Virus record (IMG/VR): IMGVR_UViG_2695420427_000005
DNA from: a virus
Lineage: Duplodnaviria; Heunggongvirae; Uroviricota; Caudoviricetes
Length of the DNA stretch: 11,880 nt
Direction: 5' to 3' (one strand)
Shown here: in pieces, positions 1,983 to 4,880 of the stretch
Layout of the letters: every line of letters begins with the position of its first letter
Position numbering within the stretch: position 1 is the first letter of the stretch
Notes under the pieces: model-generated
Database searches by the model: none
Told to the model about the DNA's origin: nothing
What the model saw: only the letters and a program-made list of their open reading frames with translations
Program-made: the position numbers and the translations under genes

Positions 1983-3923
1983 GCCGTCAGGTGCTGCACT
2001 GCCGGTGGGATGACGCTGTTCAGGGAACCTGACTGCGGCTCAAAGCGGGCACCGTTATCCACGATGGCTTCTTTTTCCAGTACGTGCTGCACCGCCGTGA
2101 TGGCAAAGGTGCCGTCCGTGTTTTCCCGGACGGAGACACAGCGGAACAGGCGACGGCGCAGTGACGGCAGGGAGAGTCCCCACACCCCGTATGTCTCCAC
2201 ACCATCAGGCAGGGTACTGACCTGTATCCGGTCCGGCGCGGGGTGTTCGGTGATGTCCACACTCACCGGCTTACCGCTGCCGTTAATCAGGTTCACCGTG
2301 GCGGCACCGGTCTCCGGAAGTGTCACTTCACGGTCCAGCGTCAGAGTGCGGGTGGCAGCATCAATGGACAGGACACGTCCGCCGGTCAGGGTCCCGGCAT
2401 AGTCGTTATCACAGATTTCAATGATGTCACCGGGTGTGTGCCGCAGCCCCTGAGACCCGAGCGTGAAATCCACCGTCTGCGTTTCCAGCAGTTCGGTCTT
2501 TATCACCCACAGTCCGGCACGGTGGGCCTGACCGCGGCTGGTACAGCCGAACGCGTCCATCTTCAGCAGGTTGCGTCCGTAGCGCAGTATGGCTTCCGGG
2601 TCTTCCACCAGTTCCGTGGAGGTCTGCCAGCCGTTCTGCGGGTCGGTATAATTCACCTCCACCGCCGTGTGCCGGTCCTTCAGGGCACTGAAGCTGTAGC
2701 GGAAACCCACGCCGTTATCATCCACCACCACATCGCTGTTGGTGTACGGCCACACCACATCCGACGGGCGGTCCTGAACAAACGTCAGCGTCTGGCCGTT
2801 CCATACCGGCATACAGCGCATCGCCGAGCAGAAATCACTGAGCACGTCCCATGCCTTACGCTGTTGTGCCAGGTACGCATTGAAGGTCATCCGCGGCTCG
2901 GTCTCCCCGAAACTATCCGGGACCGTCTGGTCGCAGTACTGCCCGATGGCATACAGCGCCCACTTGTCCACATCCGCCGCCCCCAGACGTTTTCCCATGC
3001 CGTAGCGCGGGTGAGTCAGCATGTCCCACAGACACCAGGCCGGATTGTTGCTGTATGCCGGTTTCAGGCTGCCGTCCCAGATACCACTGTACGTGCGTTT
3101 TTCCGGGTCATAGTTTGACGGCACCTGGATGATGCGACCGCGGATATGGTAGTTCACCGTCATCTGCTGGCCGCCGAACTGCTCCGCATCCACCTGCAGC
3201 CCCACAATGGCCGTGTTCGGGTAGCACTGTTTCACATCGATGATTTCGGTGTATGACGACCACAGCGTCTTATTCTGCAGCTGGTCCGTGGTGCTGTCCG
3301 CTGTCTCCCGGACCATCCGGATGTTAAAAGGACGGGGAGGCAGATTATCCAGAATCACCGACGCCAGAAACTGCGAGGTGGTCTTGCCGTTAATGGTGAC
3401 ATCCTTTTCTGTCACCCAGTTACCGTTACGCTGTAACTGAATCAGCAGGCGGACGGATGTCGGGTTTCGGTCACCCTTTGACGTGGTCTGCACCAGTGAC
3501 TGCACCCCGAAGGTAACCCGCAGGCGGTCAATGTTCGCGGACGTAATGGTGCGCGTCACCGGTTTTGCCTTCGTCACTTCCACGCCCAGTCCGGTTTCAG
3601 CACCGGAGGACTCAAAGCCTTCCGGTGGTGTCTGCTCCTGCTCCCCGGCGCGTCAGACCGCCGTCACACCGTGTATCACGGGATTACCGTCCGTGTCCGT
3701 CAGCGGGGTTTTGTTCACCAGGATACTCTGCAGTCCCTTCACCGGACCTTCTATCAGTCCCTCACCAATCGCATCAATCACGCTCATCATCTGCGTGGAT
3801 TTGAGATTATCCTTCGCCTCACGAGGCGTGTGTGCCTTACCGCCACCTTTTCCCATACAGCCTTCCCCTGAATAAATTAACCGCCACTTGCCATTCCGTA
3901 CAGAAGTCGGATATCCTTCGCCC

Positions 3924-3995
3924 GAAAAGCATGAAACACATTTCTGCCATGCTAAAGAGAAACCCCGGTATCAGCAGATACCGGGGTTTTCTTTC
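3924..3995 (+). ncRNA. Candidate small RNA 1 (about 70 nt), antisense to the tail operon; weak promoter, strong terminator
   Basis: Possible sigma70 promoter TTGCCA (3888..3893), 18-bp spacer, TATCCT (3912..3917); ends at the 3961..3995 hairpin. The only ORF through it (MKHISAML...) reads across the terminator stem and has no SD. Confidence 0.2.
3961..3995. terminator. Intrinsic-terminator-like hairpin with U-rich tails on both strands (possibly bidirectional)
   Basis: Perfect 12-bp stem AACCCCGGTATC (3961..3972) / GATACCGGGGTT (3977..3988) with 4-nt loop AGCA. Plus strand follows with TTTTCTTTC; minus strand follows with TTTCTCTTT. Confidence 0.55.
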
Positions 3996-4061
3996 ATGCC
4001 CACCGATAATCCTGTTGGTTAAAACCGGTAATGGCATAAAAATTCTGAATATCTTCACATT

Positions 4062-4089
4062 TTCACAAACTGACTGTGGCGCGTATAAT
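4062..4089 (+). promoter_or_regulatory. Near-consensus sigma70 promoter, TTCACA-16 bp-TATAAT, firing away from J toward I (antisense to the tail operon)
   Basis: -35 TTCACA at 4062..4067, 16-bp spacer, -10 TATAAT at 4084..4089, in an AT-rich context; predicted start near 4096. Confidence 0.45.
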
Positions 4090-4095
4090 TTCTCT

Positions 4096-4193
4096 GCGTT
4101 AATTTTTTTGTCGTGATATAAGAATAATTCCTTACACTTAATCTTCGTAACTCTCCCGCAGTTCCTGTCCGCGATCACTGCGGGATTTTTTTA
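4096..4193 (+). ncRNA. Candidate small RNA 2 (about 95-100 nt) between promoter 4062..4089 and terminator 4154..4192
   Basis: Promoter and terminator bracket about 100 nt with no plausible start codon plus RBS. The sequence is AU-rich with a 3' hairpin and poly-U tail, the usual architecture of Hfq-type sRNAs. Confidence 0.3.
4154..4193 (+). terminator. Rho-independent terminator, plus-strand orientation
   Basis: 9-bp stem TCCCGCAGT (4154..4162) / ACTGCGGGA (4177..4185) followed by TTTTTTT (4186..4192). The minus-strand side has no U-tract, so it is unidirectional. It lies just 3' of the I stop but points the wrong way to terminate I. Confidence 0.55.
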
Positions 4194-4199
4194 TTCTTT

Positions 4200-4880
4200 T
4201 TACCCCTGCCGCCCGATAACCACGACCTTTCCGCCCCCGCCTTCATCACGGGTGCTGATGTCCTGGGATATACGGCGGGAGCCAACCAGCATTTCCCCGT
4301 AAGGCACCGGCATCGGGTTCCCCTGGGCAATCATGTTATCCAGTGAGGAAAAGTACGTGTTCTGTCTGCCGTTATCCGTTGCGCGGTAATCCGGTGTTTT
4401 TGCCTTCGGGGCCAGCATCTGGGCCACACCGCCCAGAATCATGCTGGCTCCAAGTGAAAACAGCATCGTGGTGGCAGAAAAACCACCGGCTGCCAGGGCT
4501 GAACCCCATAACGCCATTGATGCCCCGGCAGTGAAGAAAGAGCCCACGATGGCTGCCGCCCCCAGCACAATCTGCAGTCCACCCTTTCCGGCCCCGGCCA
4601 GTCGCGGCACAATGTGGATGACCGTTCCCTCACCCAGCTGTTCGTGAAGACGGGCGTACACCGCCTCCGGTGCCGTGTCATAACCGGCAATACGTATCTG
4701 GTACCAGCCTTCGTTCATCTGACGGCGAAAGCCCGGCATCTGCATCGACAGGGCGCGAATGGCTTCCGCTGCCGTGTTCACATACAGGCTGAGGCGGCGG
4801 CCAAATCGTTGTAAATCCCCGTGAAGGCAGATGCGTGCCAGTGGCGGTGACGCCAGACTGAATGCGTTCGTCGTTGCCAT
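4200..4880 (-). CDS. I: Tail tip assembly protein I
   Basis: 226 aa, MATTNAFSLASPPLARICLHGDLQRFGRR ..., with a Gly/Ala-rich hydrophobic segment; collinear with lambda gpI (223 aa). Position between K and J. Confidence 0.9.
   Translation of the reverse strand: MATTNAFSLASPPLARICLHGDLQRFGRRLSLYVNTAAEAIRALSMQMPGFRRQMNEGWYQIRIAGYDTAPEAVYARLHEQLGEGTVIHIVPRLAGAGKGGLQIVLGAAAIVGSFFTAGASMALWGSALAAGGFSATTMLFSLGASMILGGVAQMLAPKAKTPDYRATDNGRQNTYFSSLDNMIAQGNPMPVPYGEMLVGSRRISQDISTRDEGGGGKVVVIGRQG

What the first reader, a model, noticed from the sequence alone, without database searches (positions are those of the whole stretch)
3857..4199. AT-rich insertion of about 340 bp between tail genes I and J carrying antisense transcription signals
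In lambda, as I recall, I and J are separated by about 60 bp. Here the spacer is 343 bp and visibly AT-rich against GC-rich flanking genes. It contains a sigma70-like promoter and two terminator hairpins on the plus strand, opposite to the tail operon, and no ORF with a credible RBS. That is the signature of a horizontally acquired moron, and its payload looks like RNA rather than protein. Prophage-encoded regulatory RNAs that modulate host sRNA networks are established in pathogenic E. coli prophages; I cannot say from memory whether this locus is a known one.
Basis: partly seen in the sequence, partly recalled or inferred. Interest (0 to 1): 0.7.

Follow-up and report, generated by a model that had tools for sequence, protein, structure and literature searches.

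The report
Prophage small RNA gene between tail genes

Summary
The I-J spacer is 343 bp (3857-4199), against 60 bp in lambda. At 41.7% G+C it is the most AT-rich stretch of the window. On the + strand, antisense to the tail operon, it carries a near-consensus sigma-70 promoter (4062-4089) and an intrinsic terminator (4155-4192).

This unit (about 4096-4192) is an allele of a known prophage sRNA family. It occupies the same I-J locus and orientation as EcOnc22/23/24 of EHEC Sakai (Hfq-bound, about 85 nt on northern blot) and PasB of EPEC E2348/69 (83 nt, Hfq-dependent, about 37 RIL-seq partners). Rfam has no model for it and RefSeq leaves it unannotated.

The window allele is only about 74% identical to PasB and to EcOnc22. 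The differences sit in the transcribed seed region, and PasB's targets do not fit this allele, so its targets are unknown. About a third of complete E. coli genomes carry a family member; 633 records carry this allele at 99% identity or more, including CFT073, S88 and ATCC 25922.

The upstream hairpin (3963-3986) is not part of the sRNA. All 24 spacer variants examined carry a terminator-like hairpin on the tail-operon strand at this position; its role is unexplained.

Verdict: a real feature and a new member of a known kind.

The parts
3857..4199 (.). I-J spacer, 343 bp and AT-rich: a moron inserted relative to lambda's 60-bp spacer
   Evidence: ORF boundaries. G+C 41.7% against 60% in the flanks, lowest of 1154 windows. 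Lambda spacer 60 bp. 100% identical in CFT073, S88 and ATCC 25922, and never annotated.
3953..3994 (-). Bidirectional intrinsic-terminator-like hairpin. Stem 3963-3972/3977-3986, loop AGCA. T-tract 3987-3994 on the + strand; TTTCTCTTTA (3953-3962) on the - strand. It lies upstream of the sRNA promoter, between that promoter and J.
   Evidence: ViennaRNA scan: -22.0 kcal/mol (+) and -21.7 kcal/mol (-). All 24 distinct first-half variants carry a terminator-like hairpin on the tail-operon strand, built from two unrelated sequences, with compensatory changes in the short type.
4038..4062 (+). Conserved A/T-rich block AAAAATTCTGAATATCTTCACATTT upstream of and abutting the -35 hexamer. It may be an UP element or a regulator site. 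It contains TCTGA-N6-TCACA at 4044-4059.
   Evidence: Mean pairwise identity 0.92 across 36 distinct alleles, while the adjacent -35/-10 spacer is 0.65. Function is inferred only.
4062..4089 (+). Sigma-70 promoter: -35 TTCACA (4062-4067), 16-nt spacer, -10 TATAAT (4084-4089)
   Evidence: 11 of 12 match. The -10 hexamer is 0.88 identical across alleles. The promoter is nearly identical to that of EPEC PasB.
4096..4192 (+). Predicted sRNA, an allele of the PasB / EcOnc22-24 family. The primary transcript is predicted to run from G4096 to the end of the U7 tail (97 nt). The 5' end annotated for PasB maps to window 4109 (84 nt).
   Evidence: Transcription start inferred from the -10 hexamer. Homology: alignments and 74% identity to both PasB and EcOnc22. 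The covariance model hit of 90.7 bits is the only one in the window, but this allele was in the training set. Homologues: northern bands of about 85 nt and 83 nt.
4120..4128 (+). A-R-N repeat stretch AAGAAUAAU, a candidate Hfq distal-face site
   Evidence: Three consecutive ARN triplets here, 5 in PasB and 3 in EcOnc22. The stretch is A-rich in every allele although its sequence varies (0.45 identity). Hfq contact is inferred.
4129..4154 (+). Candidate seed region UCCUUACACUUAAUCUUCGUAACUCU, with a near-invariant core UAAUCUUC (4139-4146) and allele-specific flanks
   Evidence: The core is 0.96 identical and the flanks 0.66 and 0.38. In PasB the homologous segment is where complementarity to its RIL-seq partners piles up: 9 of 12 best sites, and a 16-bp perfect match to the napF 5'UTR. 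0 of 40 shuffles reach the observed mean energy.
4155..4192 (+). Rho-independent terminator of the sRNA: stem 4155-4162/4177-4184, then A, then U7 (4186-4192). It ends 7 nt from the I stop codon at 4200-4202.
   Evidence: The PasB northern probe is complementary to this element.

Best explanation
The spacer is a moron that carries an autonomous gene for a trans-acting, Hfq-dependent base-pairing sRNA of the PasB / EcOnc22-24 family.

Proposed mechanism: in a lysogen, host sigma-70 RNA polymerase starts at the promoter 4062-4089 and transcribes about 97 nt (4096-4192) antisense to the silent tail operon. Transcription stops at the hairpin plus U7 tail next to the I stop codon. The RNA may be trimmed after its 5' U-run to about 84 nt. 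It binds Hfq through the terminator and U tail and an A-R-N stretch. It pairs with mRNAs through the single-stranded segment around UAAUCUUC (about 4129-4154).

The scaffold (upstream block, -10 hexamer, 5' leader, core, terminator) is conserved. The seed flanks differ between alleles, so this allele probably controls a target set different from PasB's.

Shown here: the sequence anatomy and the homology. Shown in the literature for homologues only: expression, Hfq dependence and mRNA partners. Inferred: expression of this allele, its Hfq contacts, the seed and the targets.
For: Anatomy: promoter matching 11 of 12 positions and a terminator; fold of the RNA; the most AT-rich stretch of the window.

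Same locus and orientation as EcOnc22/23/24. These are + strand peaks lying in the 240-bp I-J spacers of Sakai Sp15, Sp14 and Sp11, whose tail genes are on the - strand. The paper's coordinates are offset by +135 to 137 from NC_002695.2, and the CLASH read GCCTGAAAAATAACTCCATAACGTTAATCTTCA lies in the predicted RNA body (the offset is supported independently by AgvB1).

Same locus as PasB, which sits in the I-J spacer of PP6 abutting the I stop codon.

Homologues are real RNAs: northern bands of about 85 nt and 83 nt, and Hfq-dependent stability. PasB forms Hfq-mediated chimeras with many mRNAs, including napF, hflX, fabR, ftsZ, ler, map and rplX. Complementarity to these partners concentrates in the segment homologous to window 4129-4154 and exceeds 40 of 40 dinucleotide shuffles.

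Conservation across 36 alleles falls in islands: promoter block 0.92, -10 hexamer 0.88, 5' leader 0.86, core 0.96.

The family is retained widely: 1847 of 5426 complete E. coli genomes, with up to 9 copies per genome. Here it is intact beside a broken J gene.
Against: There are no expression, Hfq or target data for this allele or this strain; everything functional is transferred from homologues that are 74% identical.

PasB's RIL-seq partners show only background complementarity to the window allele (about -11 to -12 kcal/mol for most), so no target can be named.

The 5' end is uncertain: 4096 is predicted, while the PasB annotation maps to 4109.

The only consensus structure is the terminator, and it shows no covariation. 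The loci were recruited by an exact match to the terminator's 3' arm, so its invariance is partly by construction.

The EHEC CLASH hybrids rest on only 1-2 reads.
Confidence: 0.8

Rival explanations
1. The RNA acts mainly in cis. It is perfectly complementary to the I-J intercistronic part of the late tail mRNA. During lytic growth, or against a related superinfecting phage, it would pair with that mRNA and change its processing, its stability or the I:J expression ratio.
For: It is encoded exactly antisense to the late operon at a fixed position in all 27 transcript alleles. Its 3' end is 7 nt from the I stop codon. A conserved terminator on the tail strand sits in the same insertion, which suggests the insertion interacts with late transcription.
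Against: The RNA overlaps neither the I coding sequence nor the J ribosome-binding site, which is about 240 nt away. Homologues are expressed in uninduced lysogens and form Hfq chimeras with many chromosomal and plasmid mRNAs through a seed. No significant trans site exists in the tail operon of this window: the best is an 11-mer, reached by 16 of 200 shuffles. The two roles are not mutually exclusive.
Confidence: 0.1
2. The spacer's selected function is transcriptional punctuation of the tail operon, through the hairpin that acts as a terminator on the tail strand. On this view the promoter-terminator unit on the other strand is an incidental passenger.
For: 24 of 24 first-half variants keep a strong terminator-like hairpin on the - strand, built from two unrelated sequences and showing compensatory changes.
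Against: It does not explain the conserved promoter block, -10 hexamer, 5' leader and UAAUCUUC core, nor the detected, Hfq-bound RNA in EHEC and EPEC. Lambda works without any such element. It is best seen as a second module of the same insertion.
Confidence: 0.05
3. The spacer encodes a small protein. Candidates: the 66-aa tail-strand ORF 4037..3837, annotated as hypothetical in phage ASU11; the 61-aa + strand ORF from 3931; or the tail-strand mini-ORF MKINV... seen in Sakai and EPEC.
For: ASU11 annotates the 66-aa ORF. In Sakai and EPEC a tail-strand ATG lies a few nucleotides after a GGGAG motif.
Against: There is no Shine-Dalgarno sequence before the 66-aa or 61-aa ORFs, and both run through the terminator hairpin. 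There is no PHROG match; the best E-value is 0.17. The 66-aa ORF is absent from the short spacer type. The mini-ORF is 39 aa in Sakai and 22 aa in EPEC, and its start codon is ACG in the window allele and ACA in others. The GGGAG motif is simply the complement of the sRNA terminator arm.
Confidence: 0.02
4. The spacer is non-functional leftover DNA in a decaying prophage, and its promoter- and terminator-like motifs arise by chance in AT-rich sequence.
For: J is a pseudogene in this window. AT-rich DNA readily produces promoter-like hexamers.
Against: The spacer is 100% identical in hundreds of genomes whose flanks differ by 7%. Conservation is island-like across 36 alleles. Homologues are abundant, Hfq-bound RNAs.
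Confidence: 0.03

Closest known systems
PasB (pathogenicity-associated sRNA B), EPEC E2348/69 prophage PP6; Pearl Mizrahi et al. 2021 (PMC8550237); distribution in Zhu, Shabalina & Storz 2026 preprint (10.64898/2026.05.13.724894)
   Same: It lies in the I-J spacer antisense to the tail operon, with its 3' end abutting the I stop codon. The promoter is nearly identical, as are the 5' leader GCGUUA plus U-run, the (U/G)AUCUUC core and the terminator arms with the U7 tail. Phage ASU11 combines the window's exact first half and promoter with a PasB-like RNA body.
   Different: The transcribed region is only 74% identical. The seed flanks differ: PasB CUCCUUCACAUUGAUCUUCAUUUG against window UUCCUUACACUUAAUCUUCGUAAC. 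PasB's partners (napF, fabR, ler and others) do not fit the window allele. In E2348/69 the spacer is the short 240-bp type. The longest exact match to the 83-nt PasB query is 25 nt, so the preprint's word-size-28 search within Escherichia would not seed on this allele; this is my inference.
EcOnc22 / EcOnc23 / EcOnc24, EHEC O157:H7 Sakai prophages Sp15, Sp14, Sp11; Tree et al. 2014 (PMC4104026), Waters et al. 2017 (PMC5286369)
   Same: Same locus, orientation and scaffold. Hfq-bound, an approximately 85-nt northern band, destabilised without Hfq. Targets were listed as unknown in a 2021 review.
   Different: About 74% identity to the window allele, with a different variable region. The spacer is the short 240-bp type, whose hairpin is a terminator on the tail strand only. 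Neither the PasB table nor the 2026 preprint (no occurrence of 'EcOnc') links PasB to EcOnc22-24. The equivalence rests on my alignments.
AgvB / AsxR anti-sRNAs (Rfam RF02702, RF02703)
   Same: They are prophage-encoded, Hfq-associated short RNAs carried as morons. They also combine a conserved 3' part with a variable targeting part.
   Different: They lie at the PR' moron site downstream of Q, not between I and J. There is no Rfam hit in the window at gathering threshold or at E-value up to 10. They sponge the host sRNAs GcvB and FnrS, whereas the partners listed for PasB are almost all mRNA, UTR or intergenic regions.
HnrS (EcOnc10/11/12), multicopy prophage late-region sRNA that represses hha (PMC13502914)
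   Same: It is a prophage late-region, Hfq-associated sRNA present in several copies per genome through multiple prophages. It blocks a ribosome-binding site by base pairing.
   Different: It is a different gene: EcOnc10-12 in Sp12, Sp10 and Sp9, 66 nt, at coordinates away from the I-J spacers. It is enriched in LEE-positive strains, whereas the window allele is found in ExPEC strains such as CFT073 and S88.
DicF (Qin cryptic prophage sRNA)
   Same: It is a prophage sRNA that pairs with ftsZ mRNA (my own knowledge). PasB also forms chimeras over the ftsA-ftsZ intergenic region and the ftsZ start.
   Different: There is no sequence relationship. DicF is processed from the dicBF operon transcript. 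The window allele shows no convincing complementarity to ftsZ.

Membership tests
PasB / EcOnc22-24 prophage sRNA family | Encoded in the spacer between tail genes I and J of a lambdoid prophage, antisense to the tail operon, with its terminator next to the I stop codon | tested here: met
   Window. Sakai. EPEC.
PasB / EcOnc22-24 prophage sRNA family | Sequence homology of the scaffold: upstream block, -10 hexamer, GCGUUA leader plus U-run, (U/G)AUCUUC core, CCCGCAG...CUGCGGG-A-U7 terminator | tested here: met
   Alignments. 74% identity over the transcript. Conservation falls in islands. The covariance model hit of 90.7 bits is not independent, because this allele was in the training alignment.
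PasB / EcOnc22-24 prophage sRNA family | Stable transcript of about 83-85 nt expressed in the lysogen | not testable with these tools
   Shown only for homologues. Here there is only a promoter matching 11 of 12 positions and a terminator.
PasB / EcOnc22-24 prophage sRNA family | Hfq binding and Hfq-dependent stability | not testable with these tools
   Homologues. The window allele has the expected features, a GC-rich terminator with a U7 tail and three A-R-N triplets, but these are sequence features only.
PasB / EcOnc22-24 prophage sRNA family | Shares PasB's mRNA partners through the same seed | tested here: not met
   For 12 PasB RIL-seq partners, the best local duplexes average about -17 kcal/mol for PasB and about -13 to -14 for the window and Sakai alleles. 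The sites do not coincide. This argues for a diverged regulon, not against common descent.
Moron (autonomously expressed insertion in a phage late operon) | Extra DNA relative to related phages, lying between conserved genes, with its own promoter and terminator and an atypical composition | tested here: met
   343 bp against 60 bp in lambda. Promoter and terminator. G+C 41.7% against 60%. Lambda and nine non-Escherichia loci with distant I homologues give no significant model hit; the best is E = 0.25 in one Enterobacter locus.
AgvB/AsxR anti-sRNA family | Match to Rfam RF02702 or RF02703, and location at the PR' moron site | tested here: not met
   No Rfam hit at gathering threshold or at E-value up to 10. 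The locus differs.
Intrinsic (Rho-independent) terminator on the tail-operon strand, 3953-3986 | GC-rich hairpin followed by a T-rich tract, conserved in position | tested here: met
   -21.7 kcal/mol followed by TCTCTTTAG. An equivalent element is present in 24 of 24 spacer variants. Termination activity itself cannot be tested here.

The most novel reading that the evidence does not exclude
The I-J spacer may be a recombining seed-cassette platform. A fixed scaffold (upstream block, promoter, 5' leader, UAAUCUUC core, terminator, plus a partner terminator on the tail strand) is kept, while the seed flanks are swapped between prophage lineages.

On this reading each allele group (PasB, EcOnc22-24 and the CFT073-type allele of this window) gives its host a different regulon. 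The allele here would regulate genes relevant to extraintestinal E. coli and would still be unrecognised as a PasB relative.

A bolder version is that alleles also act as antisense weapons against the late mRNA of co-resident or incoming phages that carry the same spacer.
Probability: 0.25. Interest if true: 0.55.

Novelty: new member of a known kind. Interest (0 to 1): 0.35.

Why it matters
The locus shows how temperate phages add regulatory RNA to their hosts: a complete sRNA gene sits inside an otherwise tightly packed tail operon.

The family is present in about a third of complete E. coli genomes, with up to nine copies per genome, yet it has no Rfam model and is unannotated in RefSeq. 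Its two experimentally detected forms, PasB and EcOnc22-24, are not cross-referenced in the papers I could read.

The allele in this window is common in extraintestinal strains. It is diverged enough to escape the published PasB survey, and its seed region differs, so it probably has its own unknown targets.

Practical consequences are modest but concrete: an Rfam family could be built, annotation improved, and a defined RNA tested in UPEC and NMEC strains.

Tried and rejected
- **Rfam:** searched at gathering threshold over the whole window and at E-value up to 10 over 3800-4260. Only sub-threshold noise appeared; the best was a Streptococcus sRNA model at 27 bits against a 48-bit threshold, driven by the hairpin.

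- **AgvB/AsxR identity (my first guess from memory):** rejected. Those genes lie at the PR' site.

- **HnrS (EcOnc10-12):** a different gene.

- **PasA, PasC and PasD:** the sequences printed in the supplement do not resemble this RNA.

- **Taking the EcOnc22 coordinates at face value in NC_002695.2:** this put the Hfq peak on the upstream hairpin. The cause was a +135 to 142 offset between genome versions.

- **Scan of one genome per species with the I protein:** only 12 loci. The close ones were E. coli-like contigs filed under other organisms.

- **Covariation:** RNAalifold finds only the invariant terminator and no compensatory pairs.

- **Whole-length duplex prediction:** it gave meaningless long-range pairings. 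I replaced it with windowed local duplexes.

- **Trans target inside the tail operon of the window:** none above chance.

- **Genome-wide target prediction for this allele:** not possible, because no whole genome can be loaded.

- **Small-protein readings:** rejected.

- **CRP site in the conserved block:** the TCTGA-N6-TCACA motif is centred near -44.5 from the predicted start, which is not a canonical activating position. I leave it as an unexplained lead.
Full report
**1. The observation**

The window holds a lambda-like tail operon on the minus strand: V, G, T, H, M, L, K and I. I is the ORF 4200-4880, and the J start codon ends at 3856. In lambda, I ends at 15444 and J starts at 15505, a 60-bp spacer.

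The spacer is 41.7% G+C (second half 36.5%), against about 60% for I and J. It is the most AT-rich of 1154 overlapping 343-nt windows.

The plus strand carries these signals:
- A promoter, TTCACA-16-TATAAT at 4062-4089, matching 11 of 12 positions. The region has 3 promoter-like sites against 0.6 expected from shuffles.
- A terminator: stem 4155-4162/4177-4184 followed by seven T.
- A second strong hairpin at 3963-3986 with T-rich tracts on both sides.

No ORF in the spacer has a ribosome-binding site or a PHROG match.

**2. What it is**

Rfam has no family for it, either at gathering threshold or at E-value up to 10. RefSeq annotates nothing there, although the 343 bp are 100% identical in CFT073, S88, CE10, ATCC 25922 and many other strains.

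The literature settles the identity.

*EHEC.* Tree et al. 2014 list EcOnc22, EcOnc23 and EcOnc24 as Hfq-crosslinked orphan RNAs in Sakai prophages Sp15, Sp14 and Sp11. EcOnc22 gives a band of about 85 nt and is destabilised without Hfq (PMC4104026 Table S2). All three coordinates fall in 240-bp I-J spacers, on the strand opposite the tail genes.

The paper uses the older genome version. The offset to NC_002695.2 is about +142 at AgvB1 and +135 to 137 at these loci. An RNase E-CLASH read assigned to EcOnc22 in Waters et al. 2017 (PMC5286369) is GCCTGAAAAATAACTCCATAACGTTAATCTTCA. This sequence lies inside the promoter-terminator unit of the Sakai spacer.

*EPEC.* PasB was found by Hfq RIL-seq and verified by northern blot. 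It is annotated at NC_011601 1466343-1466261 on the minus strand, 83 nt (PMC8550237 Table S6). That places it in the 240-bp I-J spacer of prophage PP6, ending 5 nt from the I stop codon.

Alignments show that the window, EPEC and Sakai units are homologous from an upstream A/T-rich block through the terminator. AgvB and AsxR (at the PR' site) and HnrS (EcOnc10-12) are different genes.

**3. Anatomy of the family**

An exact-match scan of IMG/VR with 18 nt of the terminator returned 120 loci. They hold 27 distinct transcript alleles and 36 distinct promoter-plus-transcript units.

Conservation falls in islands:

| Segment | Window coordinates | Mean pairwise identity |
|---|---|---|
| Upstream block | 4038-4062 | 0.92 |
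| -35/-10 spacer | 4063-4083 | 0.65 |
| -10 hexamer | 4084-4089 | 0.88 |
| Discriminator and 5' leader (UUCUCUGCGUUA) | 4090-4101 | 0.86 |
| A-rich stretch | 4113-4128 | 0.45 |
| Segment before the core | 4129-4138 | 0.66 |
| Core UAAUCUUC | 4139-4146 | 0.96 |
| Segment after the core | 4147-4154 | 0.38 |
| Terminator 5' arm | 4155-4163 | 0.82 |

The 3' arm of the terminator was fixed by the search pattern, so its conservation carries no weight.

The A-rich stretch always contains A-R-N triplets: 3 in the window allele, 5 in PasB and 3 in EcOnc22. The only consensus structure is the terminator, and it shows no covariation. The window RNA folds weakly, at -19.4 kcal/mol with a z-score of -2.1. 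This is what one expects of a largely single-stranded Hfq-dependent sRNA.

The predicted primary 5' end is G4096, 7 nt after the -10 hexamer. The coverage-based 5' end of PasB corresponds to window 4109, just after the U-run. The mature RNA may therefore be about 84 nt.

**4. How it most likely works**

For PasB there are direct interaction data. RIL-seq chimeras on Hfq link it to bfpB, bfpI, ftsZ, galE, ler, perB and rplX in DMEM. In LB they link it to napF 5'UTR, hflX, fabR, map, a PP9 phage gene, tolC 5'UTR, rplX, ftsZ, caiF and others.

I fetched twelve of these partner regions and computed windowed local duplexes:
- For 9 of the 12, the best site on PasB overlaps ACUCCUUCACAUUGAUCUUC, the segment homologous to window 4129-4154.
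- The napF 5'UTR gives a 16-bp perfect match at -23.6 kcal/mol.
- The mean best energy of -17.0 kcal/mol is not reached by any of 40 dinucleotide shuffles, whose mean is -14.7.

The conserved core with its flanks therefore behaves as the seed, and the RNA acts in trans on mRNAs, often near ribosome-binding sites.

The window and Sakai alleles give only background energies on the same partners. Function of the kind is transferable; the target list is not.

The proposed steps for the window allele (sigma-70 transcription in the lysogen, Hfq binding, pairing through 4129-4154) are all inferred.

**5. Alleles and mosaicism**

The window allele is 74% identical to both PasB and EcOnc22 over the transcript.

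Phage ASU11 has a first half and promoter identical or nearly identical to the window, but a PasB-like RNA body. Phage PhiR5_1 has the short Sakai-like first half, but the window-like RNA body. The modules therefore recombine, and almost all divergence sits in the transcribed variable part.

In complete E. coli genomes, 1847 of 5426 carry a family member, with up to 9 copies. 633 records carry the window allele at 99% identity or more.

The 2026 preprint on the distribution of Pas sRNAs describes PasB as embedded in a phage structural operon, often the only Pas gene in a genome, and of unknown function. Within Escherichia it used word size 28. The longest exact match between PasB and the window allele is 25 nt, so I infer that this allele group was not captured. 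The preprint never mentions EcOnc, and the PasB table lists no EHEC homologue.

**6. The other hairpin**

The hairpin at 3963-3986 lies upstream of the sRNA promoter, so it cannot terminate the sRNA.

All 24 distinct sequences between the J start and the promoter block contain a terminator-like hairpin on the tail-operon strand, at -18 to -22 kcal/mol with a T-rich tail. Two unrelated hairpin sequences serve this role. The short type shows compensatory changes: ACAGGCACCC..GGGTGCCTGT against ACAGGCATCC..GGATGCCTGT. Only the window type is bidirectional.

I found no minus-strand promoter in the spacer. The element must therefore act on transcripts arriving from the tail genes, presumably being read through under Q antitermination. 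Its purpose is unexplained.

**7. Rival readings**

- **Cis-antisense role on the late mRNA.** It cannot be excluded, but it is not needed to explain the data, and the RNA overlaps neither the I coding sequence nor the J ribosome-binding site.
- **Small protein.** These readings fail. The ASU11-annotated 66-aa ORF exists only in the long spacer type and runs through the hairpin. The tail-strand mini-ORF of Sakai (39 aa) and EPEC (22 aa) loses its ATG in the window allele.
- **Chance motifs in junk DNA.** This is contradicted by the island-like conservation and by the detected RNAs.

**8. Context noticed**

J is a pseudogene in this window. It has a TGG-to-TGA nonsense change at codon 68, a frame-shifting 22-nt deletion near 1982, and an internal duplication of about 490 bp. 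The prophage is defective, yet the sRNA unit is intact.

The spacer is 100% identical to CFT073, although the flanking tail genes are only 93% identical.

**9. Verdict**

It is a divergent, undescribed allele of a known but functionally uncharacterised prophage sRNA family. It counts as a new member of a known kind and is of moderate interest.

Noticed in passing
window 3653-3655, about 1982, 683-1174 and 1332-1823: J is a pseudogene. It has a TGG-to-TGA nonsense change at codon 68 (the codon is intact in CFT073 and strain cM8a). It has a 22-nt frame-shifting deletion near 1982. A stretch of J of about 490 bp is present twice. The prophage is defective although the sRNA unit is intact.
   Followed up: partly
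window 3857-4199 against its flanks: The spacer is 100% identical to CFT073, but the flanking tail genes are only 93% identical with many gaps. The best whole-window matches in complete genomes are 97-98%. This points to a mosaic history for the locus.
   Followed up: partly
L151 (phage ASU11) 1171-1550; L152 (phage PhiR5_1) 1094-1375: The modules recombine independently. ASU11 combines the window's first half and promoter with a PasB-like RNA body. PhiR5_1 combines the short Sakai-like first half with the window-like RNA body.
   Followed up: yes
window 3953-3994; equivalent elements in L002, L140 and 114 IMG/VR segments: A terminator-like hairpin on the tail-operon strand sits just before J in all 24 spacer variants. 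It is built from two unrelated sequences, and the short type shows compensatory base changes. No promoter on that strand lies inside the spacer. The function is unknown.
   Followed up: partly
window 4038-4062: A 25-nt block upstream of the -35 hexamer is 0.92 identical across alleles. It contains TCTGA-N6-TCACA (4044-4059), one mismatch from the CRP core, centred near -44.5. PasB is reported to be higher in overnight LB than in DMEM. It could be a regulator site or an UP element; this was not tested.
   Followed up: no
L007, L009, L016 (genome contigs): Short contigs filed under Streptomyces flavalbus, Parendozoicomonas haliclonae and a Clostridiales MAG encode an I protein 91-98% identical to the window's. 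They also carry the sRNA, at 81-98 bits with the model. They are most likely E. coli prophage contamination or misbinning in those assemblies.
   Followed up: partly
L002 1267-1386 (-), L140 904-972 (+), window about 4148-4150: On the tail strand, the complement of the conserved core reads AUGAAGAUUAA, preceded by GGGAG, which is the complement of the terminator arm. This gives a mini-ORF MKINV... of 39 aa in Sakai and 22 aa in EPEC. The start codon is ACG in the window allele and ACA in others, so the ORF is not conserved.
   Followed up: yes
Sakai genome coordinates (L002-L006): Coordinates in the Tree 2014 and Waters 2017 supplements refer to NC_002695.1. They are about 135-142 nt lower than in NC_002695.2 at 1.27-2.9 Mb. 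Taken at face value they put EcOnc22 on the wrong element and AgvB1 inside a coding sequence.
   Followed up: yes
L141 (EPEC ftsA-ftsZ), PasB partner list: PasB forms Hfq chimeras over the ftsA-ftsZ intergenic region and the ftsZ start in both growth conditions. This recalls the prophage sRNA DicF. The window allele shows no convincing complementarity there.
   Followed up: partly
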